Assembly: GCF_017348835.2 (NCBI RefSeq)
Contig: NZ_CP071375.1
Strand: one strand, 5' to 3'
Length of the DNA stretch: 64,000 nt
DNA from: Escherichia coli
GTDB lineage: Bacteria > Pseudomonadota > Gammaproteobacteria > Enterobacterales > Enterobacteriaceae
Made by a program: the position numbers. Shown here one piece after another: positions 43,448 through 49,726 of the stretch (position 1 is the stretch's first letter; each line of letters begins with the position of its first letter).

Positions 43448-46400
43448 TAACCGCTGATTTACCCGGCGCAGTCTCTCCTGCGCCGGTGTATTAACCTATC
43501 TCCTGTAACGCATGTCTCTGGCGTTCGACGATATTGGTCCACAAATTGTCTTTATCGTCAGTCCACAAATTAATCAGCAAGGCAAAAAAGCGTTCTGCTG
43601 CCGGAGAAAGCACGGCATCTTTGCGGCGAATAATCCCCAATGTCCGACGTATAACGGGTTCCACCAGTGGGATACCAATAATCGAAGAATAGGGCGCATG
43701 GGGCATTGCCAGACCAGGAAGCGCTGAAATCCCCAGTCCCGCCTCTACCAGTCCTAATGACGTCGAAAGATGACGCACTTCGTAAAACCAGTCCAGCTTC
43801 CAGGGCTTGTCGGCTAGCTGTTGTTCTATCAACAGTCGGTTGCCGCTGGAGGAGCGTACGCCAATCATTTTGTAACCCACTAACTCCTGCCATTCTACAA
43901 GCTGCTTTTTGGCTAATGGATGGTCACGCCGACAGGCCAGCACGAACGGCTCGTTGACCAGTGGGCTAAAATCAATGGATGAATTTGTGACGTTGTTCAT
44001 GTTTATGCCAAAATCTGATTCGTTACATAGCACCGATTCCATGCAATTATTCGTGCCTTGTTCCAGAATCCGCACTTTAATATTGGGATACAGCTCATTA
44101 AATTTACCGATTGCCAGCGGTAAAAAATAAAATACTGCGGTCGGAATACACGCTAACGTCACCATACCACGATGATAAGCATTCATATCACGAATATTAA
44201 AAAGCGTTTCATCGAATTTCTTTATTAATTCCCGCGCCTCCGGGAGCAACCTTTTTCCTGCTTTTGTTAACGTAACCTTGCGAGTTGTACGCTCAAATAG
44301 TTGAATATGTAAATCTTCCTCCATCTTTTTTATTCTTCGCGTTAATGCAGGTTGCGTAATATTGAGTAATTTAGCGGCATTGTTAAATGAACTGGACTCT
44401 GCCAGTATGACAAATGCCTTCATACTTGATAATTCATGCTTCATTATTACTCCGGAAAATGGAAGCGACGATTTTGGGTGGCTGGCCGTTAAAAATTTTA
44501 ACTGCATTTAGCCAACTTAAATTAATGAAAAAATGTTATTAATCGTTGAGCTAAAGTCATTAGAGATGCTTTGCCCTTAATGTAACCATATCGCAATAAG
44601 TTATGTTTTTAAATTGAGGGCATTATTATGAAAAAAATACCCTGCGTGATGATGCGAGGTGGAACCTCGAGGGGCGCGTTCCTGTTAGCGGAACATTTAC
44701 CCGAAGATCAAACGCAGCGCGATAAAATATTGATGGCAATTATGGGTTCCGGTAACGATCTGGAAATTGACGGTATTGGCGGCGGTAATCCGCTGTCCAG
44801 TAAAGTCGCCATTATTAGCCGCTCCAGCGATCCGCGTGCAGATGTCGATTATCTGTTTGCTCAAGTTATCGTCCATGAGCAACGTGTCGATACCACGCCT
44901 AACTGCGGCAATATGCTGTCTGGAGTTGGGGCATTCGCCATTGAAAATGGTTTGATTGCAGCGACTTCGCCAGTTACCCGCGTACGTATCCGCAACGTCA
45001 ATACGGGTACGTTCATCGAAGCTGATGTGCAAACGCCAAATGGAGTTGTCGAGTACGAGGGTAGCGCCAGAATTGACGGCGTACCGGGTACTGCCGCACC
45101 GGTTGCGCTCACTTTCCTGAATGCCGCTGGAACGAAAACCGGAAAAGTATTCCCGACTGATAATCAGATTGATTATTTTGACGATATCCCGGTGACATGT
45201 ATCGATATGGCGATGCCAGTCGTCATTATTCCGGCTGAATATCTGGGAAAAACAGGTTATGAATTACCGGCGGAACTGGATGCCGACAAAGCATTATTAG
45301 CCCGCATTGAATCTATCCGTCTACAAGCGGGTAAAGCAATGGGCTTAGGTGATGTCAGTAATATGGTTATCCCTAAACCTGTGCTTATTTCTTCAGCGCA
45401 GAAAGGCGGGGCAATTAATGTGCGTTATTTTATGCCGCATTCTTGCCATCGCGCGCTGGCGATAACCGGTGCTATTGCTATTTCCAGTAGTTGTGCATTG
45501 GAAGGCACAGTCACCCGACAAATCGTCCCTTCTGTAGGATACGGCAATATCAATATTGAACACCCCAGTGGTGCGCTCGACGTTCATTTAAGTAATGAAG
45601 GTCAGGATGCCACGACGTTACGCGCATCTGTTATTCGGACAACCAGAAAAATATTTTCCGGTGAGGTTTATCTTCCCTGAAAAAATTCGTTGTCAGGATA
45701 AGGACAATCAATAAAGGACTTCTGTATGAGTCATACAGAAAGAACAGGATTTTAAATGAATAAGAAATCGTTATGGAAGCTAATTCTGATATTAGCGATC
45801 CCATGTATTATTGGTTTTATGCCAGCTCCGGCAGGATTAAGCGAACTGGCGTGGGTGCTTTTTGGTATTTACCTGGCGGCCATTGTGGGTCTGGTTATCA
45901 AGCCTTTCCCGGAACCTGTCGTACTGTTAATTGCTGTTGCTGCCTCCATGGTGGTGGTCGGTAACTTATCCGACGGTGCGTTTAAGACCACCGCCGTATT
46001 AAGCGGTTACTCTTCAGGTACTACCTGGCTGGTGTTCTCGGCGTTTACCTTAAGCGCCGCATTTGTGACCACCGGTTTAGGTAAACGTATTGCCTATCTG
46101 CTGATTGGTAAAATCGGTAACACCACGCTGGGTTTGGGTTACGTTACGGTATTCCTCGATCTGGTATTGGCTCCGGCAACACCGTCTAACACCGCGCGTG
46201 CGGGCGGCATTGTGTTACCGATCATCAACAGCGTGGCGGTGGCTTTGGGGTCCGAACCGGAAAAAAGTCCGCGTCGTGTCGGACATTACCTGATGATGTC
46301 CATTTACATGGTCACCAAAACCACCAGCTATATGTTCTTTACCGCAATGGCGGGGAACATTCTGGCGCTGAAAATGATCAACGACATTCTGCACCTGCAA

Positions 46401-49400
46401 ATTAGCTGGGGGGGATGGGCGCTGGCCGCCGGATTGCCGGGCATCATTATGCTGCTGGTTACTCCGCTGGTGATTTACACCATGTATCCGCCAGAAATTA
46501 AGAAGGTGGATAACAAAACCATCGCTAAAGCGGGCCTTGCCGAACTGGGACCGATGAAAATCCGCGAAAAAATGCTGCTCGGTGTCTTTGTGCTGGCGCT
46601 GCTGGGCTGGATTTTCAGTAAGTCTCTGGGGGTTGATGAATCCACCGTGGCAATCGTTGTTATGGCAACCATGCTGCTGCTGGGTATTGTTACCTGGGAA
46701 GACGTGGTTAAAAATAAAGGCGGCTGGAATACTTTAATTTGGTACGGCGGTATTATCGGCTTAAGCTCCTTATTATCGAAAGTTAAATTCTTCGAATGGT
46801 TAGCTGAAGTCTTTAAAAATAACCTAGCATTTGATGGTCACGGTAACGTTGCTTTCTTCGTTATTATTTTCCTCAGCATCATCGTGCGTTATTTCTTCGC
46901 TTCCGGTAGTGCCTATATCGTTGCTATGTTACCTGTATTTGCCATGCTGGCGAACGTCTCCGGCGCACCGTTAATGTTAACCGCGCTGGCACTGTTGTTC
47001 TCCAACTCCTATGGCGGCATGGTTACTCACTATGGCGGCGCGGCAGGTCCGGTCATCTTTGGCGTGGGTTACAACGATATTAAATCCTGGTGGTTGGTCG
47101 GTGCGGTACTGACGATATTAACCTTCCTGGTGCATATCACCCTCGGCGTGTGGTGGTGGAATATGCTGATCGGCTGGAACATGCTGTAAATATACTCGTC
47201 ATACTTCAAGTTGCATGTGCTGCGTCTGCGTTCGCTCACCCCAGTCACTTACTTATGTAAGCTCCTGGGGATTCACTCGCTTGTCGCCTTCCTGCAACTC
47301 GAATTATTTAGAGTATATCCATTTATTATCTTTCTGCGCACTTCACGGTGCGCAGATATCGGGAGCATTTGATGATCAAGTTATCTGAAAAAGGCGTGTT
47401 TCTCGCCAGTAATAACGAAATAATTGCCGAAGAACATTTCGCCGGCGAAATTAAAAAAGAAGAAGCCAAAAAAGGCACTATTGCCTGGTCTATTCTCTCT
47501 TCTCATAATACGTCCGGAAATATGGATAAACTTAAAATTAAGTTTGATTCATTAGCCTCTCACGATATTACCTTTGTTGGTATTGTACAGACCGCTAAAG
47601 CGTCCGGTATGGAACGTTTCCCGCTGCCGTATGTGCTGACCAACTGCCATAACTCACTTTGCGCCGTCGGCGGCACCATTAACGGTGATGACCATGTTTT
47701 TGGTTTATCGGCGGCTCAGCGTTATGGCGGTATTTTTGTGCCTCCGCATATTGCGGTCATCCATCAATATATGCGTGAGATGATGGCAGGCGGGGGCAAA
47801 ATGATCCTCGGGTCAGACAGCCACACCCGTTACGGTGCATTAGGGACAATGGCAGTCGGTGAGGGCGGCGGTGAGTTGGTAAAACAGCTGCTTAATGACA
47901 CCTGGGATATCGACTATCCGGGAGTTGTTGCGGTGCATCTGACCGGAAAACCAGCGCCGTATGTGGGGCCGCAGGATGTGGCGCTGGCTATCATCGGTGC
48001 CGTGTTCAAAAACGGCTACGTCAAAAACAAAGTGATGGAATTCGTAGGTCCCGGTGTTGCTGCGCTCTCTACCGATTTCCGTAACAGCGTTGACGTTATG
48101 ACCACTGAAACGACCTGTTTAAGTTCTGTCTGGCAAACCGATGAAGAAGTCCATAACTGGCTGACGCTGCACGGTCGCGGCCAGGATTACTGCCAGCTTA
48201 ACCCTCAACCGATGGCGTACTACGATGGCTGCATCAGCGTTGATTTAAGCGCCATCAAACCAATGATTGCGCTGCCGTTCCACCCGAGCAACGTGTATGA
48301 AATCGACACACTGAACCAGAACCTGACCGACATTCTGCGTGAGATTGAAATTGAGTCCGAACGCGTGGCGCACGGTAAAGCCAAACTCTCGCTGCTGGAT
48401 AAAGTGGAAAATGGTCGCCTGAAAGTGCAGCAGGGGATTATCGCGGGCTGTTCTGGCGGTAACTACGAAAACGTCATCGCGGCGGCGAATGCACTGCGCG
48501 GTCAATCCTGTGGCAATGACACCTTCTCGCTGGCGGTTTACCCGTCATCACAGCCGGTGTTTATGGATCTCGCCAAAAAAGGTGTGGTAGCAGATTTGAT
48601 TGGCGCAGGCGCAATTATCAGAACCGCGTTCTGTGGCCCATGCTTTGGCGCGGGCGATACGCCAATCAACAACGGTTTGAGTATTCGCCACACCACGCGT
48701 AACTTCCCGAACCGCGAAGGCTCTAAGCCAGCTAATGGGCAGATGTCAGCGGTGGCGTTGATGGACGCTCGTTCTATCGCTGCGACTGCGGCAAACGGTG
48801 GCTATTTAACCTCTGCCAGCGAACTCGATTGCTGGGACAACGTGCCGGAGTACGCCTTCGATGTAACGCCGTATAAAAACCGTGTTTATCAGGGCTTTGT
48901 GAAAGGGGCAACTCAGCAACCGCTGATTTACGGACCGAACATTAAAGACTGGCCGGAATTAGGTGCGCTGACTGACAATATCGTCCTCAAAGTGTGCTCG
49001 AAGATCCTCGACGAAGTGACCACCACCGACGAATTGATTCCTTCCGGTGAAACCTCTTCTTATCGTTCAAATCCGATTGGTCTGGCGGAGTTTACCCTGT
49101 CACGCCGCGATCCAGGTTATGTTGGCAGAAGTAAAGCGACTGCTGAGCTGGAAAATCAGCGTCTGGCGGGGAATGTCAGCGAGCTGACAGAGGTGTTTGC
49201 GCGCATTAAGCAGATTGCTGGTCAGGAGCATATTGATCCGCTGCAAACTGAAATTGGCAGCATGGTCTATGCGGTGAAACCAGGCGATGGTTCTGCGCGT
49301 GAACAGGCGGCGAGCTGCCAGCGTGTGATTGGCGGTCTGGCGAATATTGCCGAGGAGTACGCGACTAAACGCTATCGTTCTAACGTCATCAACTGGGGGA

Positions 49401-49726
49401 TGTTACCGCTGCAAATGGCGGAAGTACCAACCTTTGAAGTGGGGGATTACATTTACATCCCTGGCATTAAAGCGGCGCTGGATAATCCGGGTACGACGTT
49501 TAAAGGTTATGTGATCCATGAAGATGCGCCGGTAACGGAAATTACGCTTTACATGGAAAGCCTGACGGCTGAAGAGCGCGAGATTATCAAGGCGGGTAGT
49601 TTGATTAACTTCAATAAAAACCGTCAGATGTAAAAAGCGCCATGTGAATGTAGGTCGCATTCGGCACTTATTGTCGGATGCGATGCTGGCGCATCTTATC
49701 CGACCTACAAATCGCATCGAACCGTA

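What the first reader, a model, noticed from the sequence alone, without database searches (positions are those of the whole stretch)
44628..49633. Conserved ybhH-ybhI-ybhJ cluster (PrpF-like isomerase, DASS transporter, aconitase-family protein) with divergent LysR regulator: substrate unknown
This gene set is diagnostic of a tricarboxylate or dicarboxylate hydration/isomerisation pathway (analogous to AcnD-PrpF) but has no assigned substrate. Here it lies in a genome that also carries the mesaconate/citramalate module, so branched C5-dicarboxylates (mesaconate, citraconate, itaconate-derived acids) are testable candidate substrates.
Basis: inference. Interest (0 to 1): 0.3.

Follow-up and report, generated by a model that had tools for sequence, protein, structure and literature searches.

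The report
Probable trans-aconitate utilisation genes, E. coli
The ybhD-ybhHIJ genes are a real, well-known but functionally unassigned core E. coli cluster, and comparison with relatives suggests they import the plant acid trans-aconitate and convert it via cis-aconitate to citrate or isocitrate, not branched C5 acids.

Summary
The window is E. coli chromosome and 44628-49633 holds ybhH (PrpF family), ybhI (DASS transporter) and ybhJ (aconitase family), with the divergent LysR gene ybhD. The cluster is present in 5316 of 5426 complete E. coli genomes and is under strong purifying selection.

The C5-dicarboxylate idea rests on a neighbouring methylaspartate/mesaconase island. That island is in only 1117 of 5426 genomes, so the co-occurrence says little.

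- **YbhJ:** it keeps the three Fe-S cysteines and the catalytic residues. It is 60-72% identical to proteins of gut anaerobes that sit in operons with citrate synthase plus isocitrate dehydrogenase, or with a PrpF protein, a transporter and citrate lyase.
- **YbhH and YbhD:** their closest relatives (54-63% identity) are LysR-isomerase-transporter units in Pseudomonas, Dickeya and Pantoea, the last two followed by citrate lyase.
- **Published activity:** Pseudomonas enzymes whose primer-encoded termini match this clade are active aconitate isomerases.

Best reading (confidence about 0.5): a Tar-like trans-aconitate assimilation locus with its own aconitase. The RefSeq name "4-oxalomesaconate tautomerase" is probably wrong. 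No E. coli experiment confirms this, and one truncated enterobacterial homologue was inactive.

The parts
43491..44444 (-). ybhD, a LysR-type regulator (317 aa), divergent from ybhH; probable effector-sensing repressor/activator of the cluster
   Evidence: Pfam HTH_1 plus LysR_substrate and the RefSeq annotation. It is 59% identical to the Dickeya regulator and 54% to the Pseudomonas regulator that sit beside YbhH-clade isomerases. ybhH is strongly up in a ybhD deletion mutant (PMC9068703). dN/dS is 0.035 against E. albertii.
44519..44565 (.). Candidate YbhD operator in the 183-bp ybhD-ybhH intergenic region: dyad TTAAT-N11-ATTAA (44522-44542) overlapping TTAATCG (44539-44545)-N12-CATTAG (44558-44563)
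   Evidence: The block AATCG...CATTAG is conserved between E. coli, E. albertii, Citrobacter, Edwardsiella, Dickeya and Pantoea, although the flanking sequence diverges. That YbhD binds here is inferred, not shown.
44628..45680 (+). ybhH, a PrpF-family 1,3-allylic isomerase (350 aa); proposed aconitate isomerase (trans-aconitate to cis-aconitate)
   Evidence: PrpF Pfam match over its full length. PDB 6OTV is this protein. The residues aligning with LigU Lys66 and Cys100 are kept, as TSKVA and NCGN. It is 61-64% identical to Pseudomonas, Dickeya and Pantoea proteins. The Pseudomonas member scores 489 bits against YbhH and 328 against LigU. dN/dS is 0.033.
45756..47189 (+). ybhI, a DASS-family anion transporter (477 aa); proposed importer or exchanger for the substrate
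   Evidence: Na_sulph_symp and TIGR00785 matches above cut-off. The best solved relatives are the plastid dicarboxylate translocators DiT1 and DiT2.1 and a bacterial DASS protein. dN/dS is 0.023.
47192..47322 (.). Dispersed intergenic repeat (ERIC-like by my recollection of the consensus) between ybhI and ybhJ
   Evidence: It occurs at a median of 5 and up to 10 places per E. coli genome. As RNA it folds into a long imperfect hairpin of -42.6 kcal/mol, z -5.8. Any effect on ybhI-ybhJ co-expression is untested.
47372..49633 (+). ybhJ, an aconitase-family [4Fe-4S] hydro-lyase (753 aa); proposed dedicated aconitase (cis-aconitate to citrate/isocitrate)
   Evidence: Aconitase plus Aconitase_C domains and its own NCBIfam equivalog NF008503 'hydratase'. 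Equivalents of pig aconitase Cys358/421/424, His101, His147, Asp165-Ser166-His167, Arg447, Arg452, Ser642 and Arg644 are kept, while Asp100 is Cys, Gln72 is His, Asn446 is Thr and Ser643 is Ala. Homologues at 60-72% identity sit in citrate synthase/IDH and citrate lyase operons. dN/dS is 0.035.

Best explanation
ybhD-ybhHIJ is a catabolic or detoxifying locus for trans-aconitate, or a very close aconitate isomer.

1. YbhD (LysR type) holds the ybhH promoter down until the acid is sensed.
2. YbhI (DASS family, most similar to exchanger-type members) brings the acid in.
3. YbhH (PrpF fold, Lys/Cys acid-base pair) moves the double bond by a 1,3-allylic proton shift, turning trans-aconitate into cis-aconitate.
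4. YbhJ, an Fe-S aconitase-type hydratase, hydrates cis-aconitate to citrate or isocitrate.
5. The product enters the TCA cycle, or under anaerobiosis is cleaved by citrate lyase.

Shown: the gene content and its conservation, the conserved catalytic residues, the neighbourhoods of relatives, and de-repression of ybhH in a ybhD mutant (published).

Inferred: the substrate, the direction of flux, the effector of YbhD, and why a second aconitase is needed. It may be needed because trans-aconitate inhibits ordinary aconitase.
For: **YbhJ is built like an active enzyme.** All three cluster cysteines and the catalytic Ser, His, Asp and Arg residues are invariant in true family members.

**The YbhJ family is widespread in gut and rumen anaerobes.** Members are 60-72% identical to E. 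coli YbhJ. In 25 of 78 such loci, and 17 of 36 with at least 3 kb on both flanks, citrate synthase, isocitrate dehydrogenase, citrate lyase or a PrpF gene lies within 6 kb.
- YbhJ-homologue, citrate synthase and Iso_dh follow one another with 3-20 nt gaps in L016, L024 and L063. The synthase passes the citrate synthase model, and a neighbouring NADP-IDH in L022 passes its equivalog.
- LysR | CitMHS transporter | PrpF | YbhJ-homologue | citDEFG occurs in L013, L049 and L075.

**YbhH's closest non-enteric relatives (61-64% identity) share its regulator.** They sit beside YbhD orthologues (54-59% identity) that share an operator-like motif.
- In Dickeya and Pantoea they are followed by an MFS transporter, a FAH-family protein and citCDEFXG. 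CitE and CitF pass the citrate lyase equivalogs.
- In Pseudomonas they are followed only by two transporters and an OprD porin. This fits a substrate that one isomerisation turns into a central metabolite.

**Published activity for the clade.** In PMC11495376, four enzymes from trans-aconitate-utilising Pseudomonas (AI-7-1, -16-1, -32-1, -41-1) showed 88-101% of TarA forward activity. Their primer-encoded termini, (M)QRIPCV(L)...RLAG, match this clade. The PrpF-proper paralogues showed 2-4%.

**Other support.**
- In Klebsiella aerogenes the ybh cluster adjoins an oadGAB-citS locus with a citAB-like two-component system.
- No OMA hydratase or aldolase gene was seen in any of these neighbourhoods.
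- dN/dS of 0.02-0.04 shows all four genes are maintained.
Against: - No experiment in E. coli links these genes to trans-aconitate, and I found no report that E. coli grows on it.
- AI-79 is the one tested homologue whose C-terminus (...GDVYVP) resembles E. coli YbhH. It comes from a trans-aconitate-utilising Providencia and had only 0.67/0.35% activity. The construct started at RGGTSK, so it lacked about the first nine residues.
- From my own knowledge (Blank, Green & Guest 2002, not readable here), inactivating ybhJ did not change the residual aconitase activity of acnAB mutants. PMC4054840 calls YbhJ catalytically inactive. The gene may simply have been repressed.
- YbhJ differs from canonical aconitase at four substrate-shell positions.
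- The PrpF partners of YbhJ homologues in Firmicutes are Mii-like, not YbhH orthologues. The two E. coli enzymes therefore did not arrive as a unit.
- The published ybhD phenotype involves L-malate, and Nac regulation is unexplained.
- An E. coli W3110 strain accumulates 37 g/L trans-aconitate with ybh intact.
- The link between the active Pseudomonas enzymes and this clade rests on 6-8 residues at each terminus.
Confidence: 0.5

Rival explanations
1. Branched C5 dicarboxylates. YbhI imports itaconate, mesaconate or citraconate. YbhH shifts the double bond (itaconate to citraconate). YbhJ hydrates citraconate to citramalate or methylmalate, which a lyase then cleaves.
For: - PrpF-family enzymes include 3-methylitaconate isomerase.
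- The PrpF proteins beside YbhJ homologues in Firmicutes are closest to that enzyme: 369 bits against 3G7K versus 279 against PrpF.
- From general knowledge, aconitase-family isopropylmalate/citramalate isomerases act on citraconate, and citrate-lyase-like complexes include citramalate lyases.
- The Firmicute CitE scores below the citrate-lyase cut-off, 368 against 443.
- A mesaconase island is in the same window.
Against: - The island is in 21% of E. coli genomes against 98% for ybh.
- YbhJ homologues of equal similarity (66-71%) sit in citrate synthase-IDH operons.
- Dickeya CitE and CitF pass the citrate lyase equivalogs.
- Pseudomonas clusters have no hydratase or lyase at all.
- The YbhH-clade enzymes tested were efficient on aconitate.
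Confidence: 0.1
2. The RefSeq annotation is right. YbhH is a 4-oxalomesaconate (OMA) isomerase like LigU and GalD, and YbhJ replaces LigJ/GalB by hydrating the product to 4-carboxy-4-hydroxy-2-oxoadipate, for scavenging ring-cleavage products of gallate or protocatechuate.
For: - YbhH passes the NCBIfam OMA_tautomer equivalog, 511.6 bits against a cut-off of 440.
- LigU is the closest biochemically named solved structure, E 8e-92.
- From established knowledge of the LigU reaction, OMA is the oxalyl analogue of aconitate, so the chemistry is the same.
Against: - No OMA hydratase, CHA aldolase or ring-cleavage dioxygenase genes lie in the window or beside any YbhH-clade gene examined.
- YbhH and the Pseudomonas enzymes form a clade to which LigU is an outgroup, 489 against 328 bits.
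- Neighbouring genes are citrate lyase and tricarboxylate-type transporters.
- OMA is an intracellular aerobic intermediate and is unlikely to be available to a gut facultative anaerobe (inference).
Confidence: 0.07
3. The substrate is another unsaturated or hydroxy tricarboxylate not considered above, for example methylaconitates, homoaconitate, hydroxycitrate-type plant acids, or an N-containing analogue in view of the Nac control. The logic of transporter, isomerase and hydratase stays the same.
For: - YbhJ departs from canonical aconitase at the equivalents of Asp100, Gln72, Asn446 and Ser643.
- NCBI curators name the family only 'hydratase'.
- Published Nac regulation and a malate-linked phenotype are not explained by trans-aconitate.
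- E. coli already has AcnA and AcnB, so a third plain aconitase looks redundant.
Against: - The same four substitutions occur in homologues that sit in citrate synthase-IDH operons, so they are compatible with citrate/isocitrate chemistry.
- The YbhH-clade enzymes tested are active on aconitate.
Confidence: 0.18
4. The cluster is cryptic in E. coli. YbhJ has no catalytic role, or only a sensory or regulatory one like apo-aconitases, and the genes contribute to stress physiology rather than carbon use.
For: - PMC4054840 describes YbhJ as a catalytically inactive paralogue. It reports that a ybhJ mutant is H2O2-sensitive with low NADPH.
- No YbhJ-dependent aconitase activity was found in older work (my recollection of Blank et al. 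2002).
- No growth substrate is known.
Against: - All Fe-S ligands and catalytic residues are invariant in the family, whereas truly degenerate relatives (P0148, P0156) have lost them.
- dN/dS is 0.02-0.04 for all four genes.
- The cluster is present in 98% of genomes.
- Low NADPH in the mutant would also fit loss of an aconitase feeding isocitrate dehydrogenase (inference).
Confidence: 0.1

Closest known systems
TarR-TarA-TarB trans-aconitate assimilation system of Bacillus velezensis FZB42 (PMC11495376)
   Same: A LysR-type regulator next to an operon that starts with a PrpF-family isomerase and includes an importer. Assimilation works by converting trans-aconitate to the TCA intermediate cis-aconitate. 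That paper's survey lists TarA homologues of 37-40% identity in E. fergusonii, Citrobacter and Klebsiella.
   Different: The E. coli transporter is DASS, not MFS. An aconitase-family hydratase (YbhJ) is added. YbhD behaves as a repressor of ybhH in the one published test, whereas TarR is an activator. E. coli itself is not in the part of the survey table I could read, and nothing has been tested in it.
LigU / GalD, (4E)-oxalomesaconate delta-isomerase of the protocatechuate 4,5-cleavage and gallate pathways (PDB 6P3H/J/K)
   Same: The same fold and catalytic Lys/Cys pair, and the closest named solved relative of YbhH. The reaction is the same 1,3-allylic shift on the oxalyl analogue of aconitate. 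The isomerase, hydratase and C-C lyase logic parallels aconitate isomerase, aconitase and citrate lyase.
   Different: No LigJ/GalB hydratase, LigK/GalC aldolase or dioxygenase is nearby. YbhH groups with the Pseudomonas, Dickeya and Pantoea clade rather than with LigU. Its neighbours are citrate-related.
AcnD-PrpF of the 2-methylcitrate cycle (Shewanella oneidensis; PMC5690661)
   Same: A pairing of an aconitase-family Fe-S enzyme with a PrpF-family isomerase acting on an aconitate-type tricarboxylate.
   Different: YbhJ scores 64 bits against an AcnD cut-off of 1420. YbhH scores 185 bits against a PrpF cut-off of 440. There are no prpB or prpC neighbours. In AcnD-PrpF the dehydratase acts first; here the isomerase most likely acts first on an imported substrate.
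Mii plus DmdAB (3-methylitaconate isomerase and 2,3-dimethylmalate dehydratase) of Eubacterium barkeri nicotinate fermentation
   Same: From established knowledge, a catabolic sequence of PrpF-family isomerase, then aconitase-family hydratase, then a C-C lyase. The PrpF partners of YbhJ homologues in Firmicutes are Mii-like. One database calls an Edwardsiella YbhJ '2,3-dimethylmalate dehydratase large subunit'.
   Different: YbhJ is a single fused 753-aa chain of a different subfamily. No B12 mutase or dimethylmalate lyase genes are nearby. YbhH is LigU-like, not Mii-like.
Citrate fermentation system CitT / CitCDEFXG of E. coli and citS-oadGAB-citAB of Klebsiella
   Same: A DASS-type carrier for a tricarboxylate, and the likely downstream route of the product. 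Dickeya and Pantoea place citCDEFXG directly after the YbhH-like gene. In Klebsiella aerogenes the ybh cluster lies beside the oad-citS locus.
   Different: ybhHIJ encodes no lyase itself. In E. coli the cit genes lie outside this window, and a functional link is inferred.

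Membership tests
PrpF family (PF04303) of 1,3-allylic isomerases | Full-length match to the family profile | tested here: met
   PF04303 E 6.5e-167, residues 1-350 on profile positions 1-371. PDB 6OTV is this protein.
PrpF family (PF04303) of 1,3-allylic isomerases | Catalytic Lys/Cys acid-base pair (LigU Lys66 and Cys100) | tested here: met
   In the alignment to LigU chain 6P3J, YbhH has Lys in SSKVA and Cys in NCGN at the aligned positions. Both are also present in the Pseudomonas, Dickeya and Pantoea members.
4-oxalomesaconate tautomerase / LigU-GalD (NF033377) | Score above the curated equivalog cut-off | tested here: met
   511.6 bits against a cut-off of 440.
4-oxalomesaconate tautomerase / LigU-GalD (NF033377) | Genomic association with OMA hydratase, CHA aldolase and a ring-cleavage dioxygenase | tested here: not met
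   None is annotated within 20 kb in E. coli, nor beside YbhH-clade genes in Pseudomonas, Dickeya, Pantoea or Klebsiella.
4-oxalomesaconate tautomerase / LigU-GalD (NF033377) | Activity on OMA | not testable with these tools
   The LigU papers could not be read here, and no YbhH assay was found in the searchable literature.
Tar-type trans-aconitate assimilation system | LysR-type regulator adjacent to the isomerase operon | tested here: met
   ybhD is divergent from ybhH. Orthologous regulators at 54-59% identity lie beside YbhH-clade genes.
Tar-type trans-aconitate assimilation system | PrpF-family enzyme with aconitate isomerase activity | tested here: inconclusive
   The family and clade fit. 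Pseudomonas enzymes with clade-matching termini are active at 88-101% of TarA. The only E. coli-type homologue tested, AI-79, was a truncated construct and was inactive.
Tar-type trans-aconitate assimilation system | MFS importer TarB | tested here: not met
   The E. coli transporter is DASS. Dickeya and Pantoea use an MFS carrier, and Pseudomonas uses SDF plus CitMHS.
Tar-type trans-aconitate assimilation system | Induction by, and growth on, trans-aconitate | not testable with these tools
   This needs an experiment. No report for E. coli was found.
Aconitase family (PF00330/PF00694), aconitate hydratase | Three Cys ligands of the [4Fe-4S] cluster | tested here: met
   AGCSGG and FCGPCFG align with pig aconitase Cys358, Cys421 and Cys424. 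They are invariant in true family members.
Aconitase family (PF00330/PF00694), aconitate hydratase | Catalytic and substrate-binding residues His101, His147, Asp165, His167, Arg447, Arg452, Ser642 and Arg644 | tested here: met
   All are conserved in the alignment to 5ACN and across the family.
Aconitase family (PF00330/PF00694), aconitate hydratase | Asp100, Gln72, Asn446 and Ser643 of canonical aconitase | tested here: not met
   They are replaced by Cys, His, Thr and Ala. The same replacements occur in homologues in citrate synthase-IDH operons.
Aconitase family (PF00330/PF00694), aconitate hydratase | Curated equivalog score for a named aconitase (AcnA, AcnB, mitochondrial, PRK07229) | tested here: not met
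   The best is PRK07229, 343 bits against a cut-off of 612. The protein passes only its own model NF008503 'hydratase'.
Aconitase family (PF00330/PF00694), aconitate hydratase | Aconitase activity | not testable with these tools
   Only indirect evidence is available: operon context of homologues for, older negative extract data (my recollection) and PMC4054840 against.
AcnD-PrpF module of the 2-methylcitrate cycle | Equivalog scores and prpB/prpC neighbours | tested here: not met
   TIGR02333 gives 64 bits against 1419.85, and TIGR02334 gives 184.7 against 440.55. No prp genes lie in the neighbourhood.
DASS transporters (TIGR00785 / PF00939) | Profile match above cut-off | tested here: met
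   553.9 bits against 198.6, and PF00939 E 6.6e-195.

The most novel reading that the evidence does not exclude
YbhJ represents a distinct, uncharacterised type of aconitase that serves as the working aconitase of many gut and rumen anaerobes (Lachnospiraceae, Megasphaera, Synergistales and others). It was passed across phyla to Enterobacteriaceae. There it was joined to an aconitate isomerase, a DASS carrier and a LysR sensor, forming a route for eating or detoxifying dietary trans-aconitate, a potent inhibitor of ordinary aconitase. On this reading four E. coli 'y-genes' gain a function, and the RefSeq name '4-oxalomesaconate tautomerase' is wrong for a whole clade.
Probability: 0.3. Interest if true: 0.55.

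Novelty: new variant of a known kind. Interest (0 to 1): 0.42.

Why it matters
ybhD, ybhH, ybhI and ybhJ belong to the uncharacterised 'y-ome' of the best-studied bacterium, and they are core genes under strong selection. A concrete, cheap-to-test substrate hypothesis would close four annotations at once. It would also correct an over-propagated RefSeq product name.

Trans-aconitate is abundant in grasses, cereals and sugar cane, and it inhibits aconitase. A dedicated uptake, isomerisation and hydration route would therefore be relevant to how E. coli and its relatives live in herbivore and human guts.

The finding that YbhJ-type proteins sit in citrate synthase-IDH operons of many anaerobes suggests that a large family named only 'hydratase' is in fact their aconitase. 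The result is not categorically new: it extends the recently described Tar system with a different carrier and an extra enzyme.

Tried and rejected
- **Co-occurrence with the mesaconase island.** Tested and rejected as uninformative: 1117 against 5316 of 5426 genomes.
- **AcnD-PrpF membership.** Rejected on equivalog scores and the lack of prp genes.
- **OMA pathway.** Considered because of the RefSeq name and the LigU similarity. Not favoured, because no partner genes are found anywhere and LigU is an outgroup.
- **Distant YbhJ-like representatives P0148 and P0156.** They have lost the Cys ligands and catalytic residues and sit in uninformative contexts (Macro domain, FGGY kinase), so they were excluded from the family alignment.
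- **Promoter and terminator scan of 44300-49900.** It gave fewer or no more sites than shuffles, so it was not used.
- **Rfam.** No match in 43300-51200.
- **Inverted-repeat search of the intergenic region.** With a 6-nt seed it found only one unrelated hairpin. The operator candidate came from cross-genus comparison instead.
- **Mapping aconitase Arg580 onto YbhJ.** The attempt to place it at Arg565 in [15 protein letters not shown], using the C-terminal domain alone, failed to align that segment. That equivalence rests only on my memory of the TTDHIS motif and is not used as evidence.
- **LigU structure paper.** It could not be retrieved, so I could not learn whether YbhH had been assayed.
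- **My crude ORF caller.** It produced spurious antisense ORFs in high-GC Collinsella loci, so for those loci I relied on tblastn.

Full report
**What is there**

The window is Escherichia coli chromosome. The stretch 43400-49800 is 100% identical to strain PE164, where the genes are annotated pgl, ybhD, ybhH, ybhI, ybhJ and ybhC.

| Gene | Window position | Strand | Length | Family |
|---|---|---|---|---|
| ybhD | 43491-44444 | - | 317 aa | LysR HTH plus substrate domain |
| ybhH | 44628-45680 | + | 350 aa | PrpF over its whole length |
| ybhI | 45756-47189 | + | 477 aa | DASS transporter |
| ybhJ | 47372-49633 | + | 753 aa | Aconitase plus Aconitase_C |

- The mechanical ORF for ybhJ starts at a GTG at 47348.
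- At least 80% of the 6.4-kb region is present in 5316 of 5426 complete E. coli genomes.
- Against E. albertii the four genes have dN/dS of 0.02-0.04, and 0.03-0.10 against Citrobacter.

The cluster is therefore real, core and maintained by selection.

**What is already known**

- PDB 6OTV is YbhH itself, deposited as 'putative isomerase'.
- Rodionova et al. 2022 (PMC9068703) showed that ybhH is strongly up in a ybhD deletion mutant. They mention Nac control and found a malate-dependent growth phenotype, but assigned no substrate.
- A genomic SELEX study lists ybhH among predicted CRP targets.
- Krisko et al. 2014 (PMC4054840) call YbhJ a catalytically inactive aconitase paralogue and report that a ybhJ mutant is peroxide-sensitive with low NADPH.
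- From my own memory, Blank, Green and Guest (2002) found that inactivating ybhJ did not change the residual aconitase of acnAB mutants.
- No paper in the searchable library assays YbhH, YbhI or YbhJ.

That module is indeed in this window: methylaspartate mutase, methylaspartate ammonia-lyase and a class I fumarate hydratase lie at about 2043-13118. It occurs in only 1117 of 5426 genomes, against 5316 for ybhDHIJ. Four out of five E. coli that keep ybhHIJ lack the island, so the co-occurrence carries no information.

**YbhJ looks like a working aconitase**

Aligned to pig mitochondrial aconitase, YbhJ keeps these residues:
- the three cluster cysteines (Cys358, Cys421, Cys424 equivalents);
- His101, His147 and Asp165-Ser166-His167;
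- Arg447, Arg452, Ser642 and Arg644.

Four positions differ: Asp100 is Cys, Gln72 is His, Asn446 is Thr and Ser643 is Ala.

The family is not confined to enterobacteria.
- A profile scan of one genome per species found at least 595 relatives.
- The best 80 loci were 2 Enterobacteriaceae and 78 gut or rumen anaerobes (Lachnospiraceae, Collinsella, Megasphaera, Synergistales, Erysipelotrichaceae, Ellagibacter and others).
- These are 60-72% identical to E. coli YbhJ. That is strikingly high across phyla and suggests horizontal exchange in the gut.
- All true members keep the catalytic set. Two remote representatives (P0148, P0156) have lost it and were set aside.

**Neighbourhoods of YbhJ homologues**

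I called ORFs in the 80 loci, clustered them and named the recurrent neighbours.

- **Pattern 1: YbhJ-homologue, citrate synthase, Iso_dh-family dehydrogenase.**
  - The genes are separated by 3-20 nt in L016, L024 and L063, and are divergent in L064. L015, L025 and L058 also have both neighbours within 6 kb.
  - The synthase passes the citrate synthase model NF010635.
  - The dehydrogenase scores best against isocitrate dehydrogenases (below their cut-offs).
  - In L022, L042 and L066 an isocitrate-dehydrogenase-type gene abuts the homologue. The L022 protein passes the NADP-dependent IDH equivalog.
- **Pattern 2: LysR (divergent) | CitMHS/MatC transporter | PrpF-family isomerase | YbhJ-homologue | citD citE citF citG.**
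  - The full set occurs in L013, L049 and L075.
  - L071 and L077 carry PrpF and the transporter.
  - L011, L040 and L088 carry citrate lyase genes.

In total, 25 of 78 non-enterobacterial loci have citrate synthase, IDH, citrate lyase or PrpF within 6 kb. The figure is 17 of 36 among loci with at least 3 kb on both flanks. About 25 loci are near-duplicate Collinsella contexts without such neighbours.

Proteins about 70% identical to E. coli YbhJ thus sit exactly where an aconitase should sit. The four 'non-canonical' residues are shared by them, so those residues are compatible with citrate/isocitrate chemistry.

**YbhH belongs to a clade that isomerises aconitate**

- NCBIfam places YbhH above the cut-off of the '4-oxalomesaconate tautomerase' equivalog and far below PrpF proper. 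LigU is the nearest named structure.
- The closest relatives outside the enteric ybh cluster are 61-64% identical proteins of Pseudomonas, Dickeya, Pantoea and Azotobacter.
- The Pseudomonas member scores 489 bits against YbhH but 328 against LigU. LigU is therefore an outgroup.

Their contexts:

| Organism | Gene order |
|---|---|
| Pseudomonas | LysR (divergent), isomerase, SDF carrier, CitMHS carrier, OprD-family porin, nothing else |
| Dickeya, Pantoea | LysR (divergent), isomerase, MFS carrier, FAH-family protein, then citC citD citE citF (citX and citG also seen in Pantoea) |

- Dickeya CitE and CitF pass the citrate lyase equivalogs.
- The adjacent regulators are YbhD orthologues: 59% identity for Dickeya and 54% for Pseudomonas, over the full length.
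- The intergenic regions share an operator-like block, AATCG-N12-CATTAG, across E. coli, E. albertii, Citrobacter, Edwardsiella, Dickeya and Pantoea. In E. coli it reads TTAATCG-N12-CATTAG at 44539-44563.
- None of these loci encodes an OMA hydratase or aldolase.

A substrate that needs only uptake and one allylic shift to become a central metabolite, and that elsewhere is channelled to citrate lyase, fits trans-aconitate.

**Link to experiment**

Zheng et al. 2024 (PMC11495376) defined the TarR (LysR) / TarA (PrpF-family aconitate isomerase) / TarB (MFS importer) system for trans-aconitate assimilation. They also assayed 16 TarA homologues from trans-aconitate-utilising isolates.

| Enzymes | Termini encoded by primers (Table S2) | Activity, % of TarA (Table S4) |
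|---|---|---|
| AI-7-1, AI-16-1, AI-32-1, AI-41-1 (Pseudomonas) | (M)QRIPCV(L) ... FRRLAG / AQRLAG / LRRLAG | 88-101 forward |
| AI-7-2, AI-16-2, AI-32-2, AI-41-2 (second homologue in the same strains) | AI-7-2 and AI-16-2: MAHVPQV ... VPGDSF, PrpF-proper | 2-4 forward |
| AI-79 (Providencia rettgeri) | RGGTSK ... GDVYVP | 0.67 / 0.35 |

- The termini of the active enzymes match the Pseudomonas YbhH-clade protein P0359, which reads MQRIPCVL...SQRLAG. The AI-32-1 forward primer matches its gene start with 1 mismatch in 18.
- AI-79 ends like E. coli YbhH (...GEVYLP) and came from a trans-aconitate-utilising strain. Its construct lacked roughly the first nine residues. This is a caveat, although the truncation could explain the inactivity.
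- The paper's survey table lists TarA homologues of 37-40% identity in E. fergusonii, Citrobacter freundii and Klebsiella. E. coli is not in the part I could read.
- A 2026 follow-up isolated trans-aconitate-assimilating Citrobacter, Enterobacter and Providencia, without gene assignments.

**Other supporting context**

- In Klebsiella aerogenes the cluster is LysR | YbhH | YbhI | a second DASS/CitMHS carrier | YbhJ. It lies beside a citAB-like two-component system, oadGAB and citS, the citrate fermentation locus.
- YbhI's best solved relatives are the plastid dicarboxylate translocators DiT1 and DiT2.1 and a bacterial DASS protein. From general knowledge these are exchanger-type members, like E. 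coli CitT.

**Proposed mechanism**

1. YbhD senses the acid and relieves repression of ybhH.
2. YbhI imports trans-aconitate, possibly in exchange for succinate or citrate.
3. YbhH converts it to cis-aconitate by a Lys/Cys-mediated 1,3-proton shift.
4. YbhJ hydrates cis-aconitate to citrate or isocitrate.
5. The TCA cycle, or citrate lyase under anaerobiosis, takes over.

A dedicated aconitase may be useful because trans-aconitate competitively inhibits ordinary aconitase (cited), or because AcnA and AcnB are limiting anaerobically. This last step is speculation. I put about 0.5 on trans-aconitate or a near isomer as the substrate.

**Evidence against, and rivals**

- There is no E. coli experiment, and AI-79 was inactive.
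- Older data found no YbhJ-dependent aconitase, though the operon was probably repressed.
- The Firmicute PrpF partners of YbhJ homologues are Mii-like rather than YbhH orthologues. The E. coli pair was therefore assembled from different sources.
- Nac control and the malate phenotype are unexplained.
- An engineered W3110 strain accumulates 37 g/L trans-aconitate with ybh intact.

| Rival | Confidence |
|---|---|
| Another tricarboxylate | 0.18 |
| C5 dicarboxylates | 0.10 |
| A cryptic or regulatory role | 0.10 |
| OMA, as RefSeq names it | 0.07 |

**Novelty and score**

The cluster itself is a known set of y-genes. The functional reading is an extension of the Tar system with a different carrier and an added aconitase, so I class it as a new variant of a known kind.

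Two by-products may be of wider use. The family NCBI calls only 'hydratase' is probably the aconitase of many gut anaerobes. The product name '4-oxalomesaconate tautomerase' is probably wrong for the YbhH/Pseudomonas clade. Interest is 0.42: a useful, directly testable annotation of four core E. coli genes, not a new kind of biology.

Noticed in passing
window 47192-47322: A dispersed intergenic repeat (ERIC-like by my recollection of the consensus) lies between ybhI and ybhJ. It has a median of 5 copies per E. coli genome and folds into a long hairpin, z -5.8. It could affect coupling of ybhJ expression to ybhHI.
   Followed up: partly
window 49640-49770: REP/BIME-type palindromic repeats lie between ybhJ and ybhC. 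Together with the repeat above, they probably explain why the 6.4-kb query matched a median of 28 places per genome.
   Followed up: no
window ~2043-13118: A methylaspartate pathway island is present in only 1117 of 5426 E. coli genomes. It carries glmS, glmL, the mutase E subunit, methylaspartate ammonia-lyase, a class I fumarate hydratase (mesaconase-type), cobO, a dicarboxylate/amino-acid symporter and a LysR gene. It also carries an AtuA-family gene plus a DUF4387 gene of unknown role, and no citramalate lyase is annotated.
   Followed up: partly
window 51191 to 64000: A lambdoid prophage is integrated just beyond ybhC. It has int at 51191-52261, xis, an IS3 insertion, kil, cIII, a cI-like repressor, cII, nin genes, lpxR and Q. 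In the matching strain PE164 it continues to the T3SS effector genes nleH and cif beyond the window end.
   Followed up: no
RefSeq/NCBIfam NF033377; proteins P0331-P0390: The name '4-oxalomesaconate tautomerase' is applied to the whole YbhH/Pseudomonas/Dickeya/Pantoea clade. Its contexts (transporters, citrate lyase) and the published activity of Pseudomonas enzymes with clade-matching termini point to aconitate isomerase, so the equivalog model appears too broad.
   Followed up: partly
L031-L059 (Collinsella loci): In about 25 Collinsella genomes the YbhJ homologue sits in a heat-shock context (dnaK, dnaJ, a MerR-type regulator, then the YbhJ homologue, then clpB) with no citrate-related neighbour. 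This is unexplained.
   Followed up: no
L007 8001-10115; L008 1175-3436: Two remote YbhJ-like proteins (P0148, P0156; 37-39% identity) have lost the Fe-S cysteines and most catalytic residues. They are followed by a Macro-domain gene and an FGGY kinase, so they are likely pseudo-enzymes with a different role.
   Followed up: partly
L005 199-10202; L003 4841-10241; L028; L040: Several anaerobes carry two YbhJ-family paralogues side by side. In L005 and L028 they sit with a 650-aa PRK07229-type aconitase, an Iso_dh gene and a PrpF gene. This hints at several related hydratase specificities within one locus.
   Followed up: partly
one search hit list (E. coli proteins P0036-P0055): Many E. coli entries for YbhJ are 634 or 648 aa rather than 753. 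These are either alternative start calls or N-terminally truncated alleles in some lineages. I did not check which.
   Followed up: no
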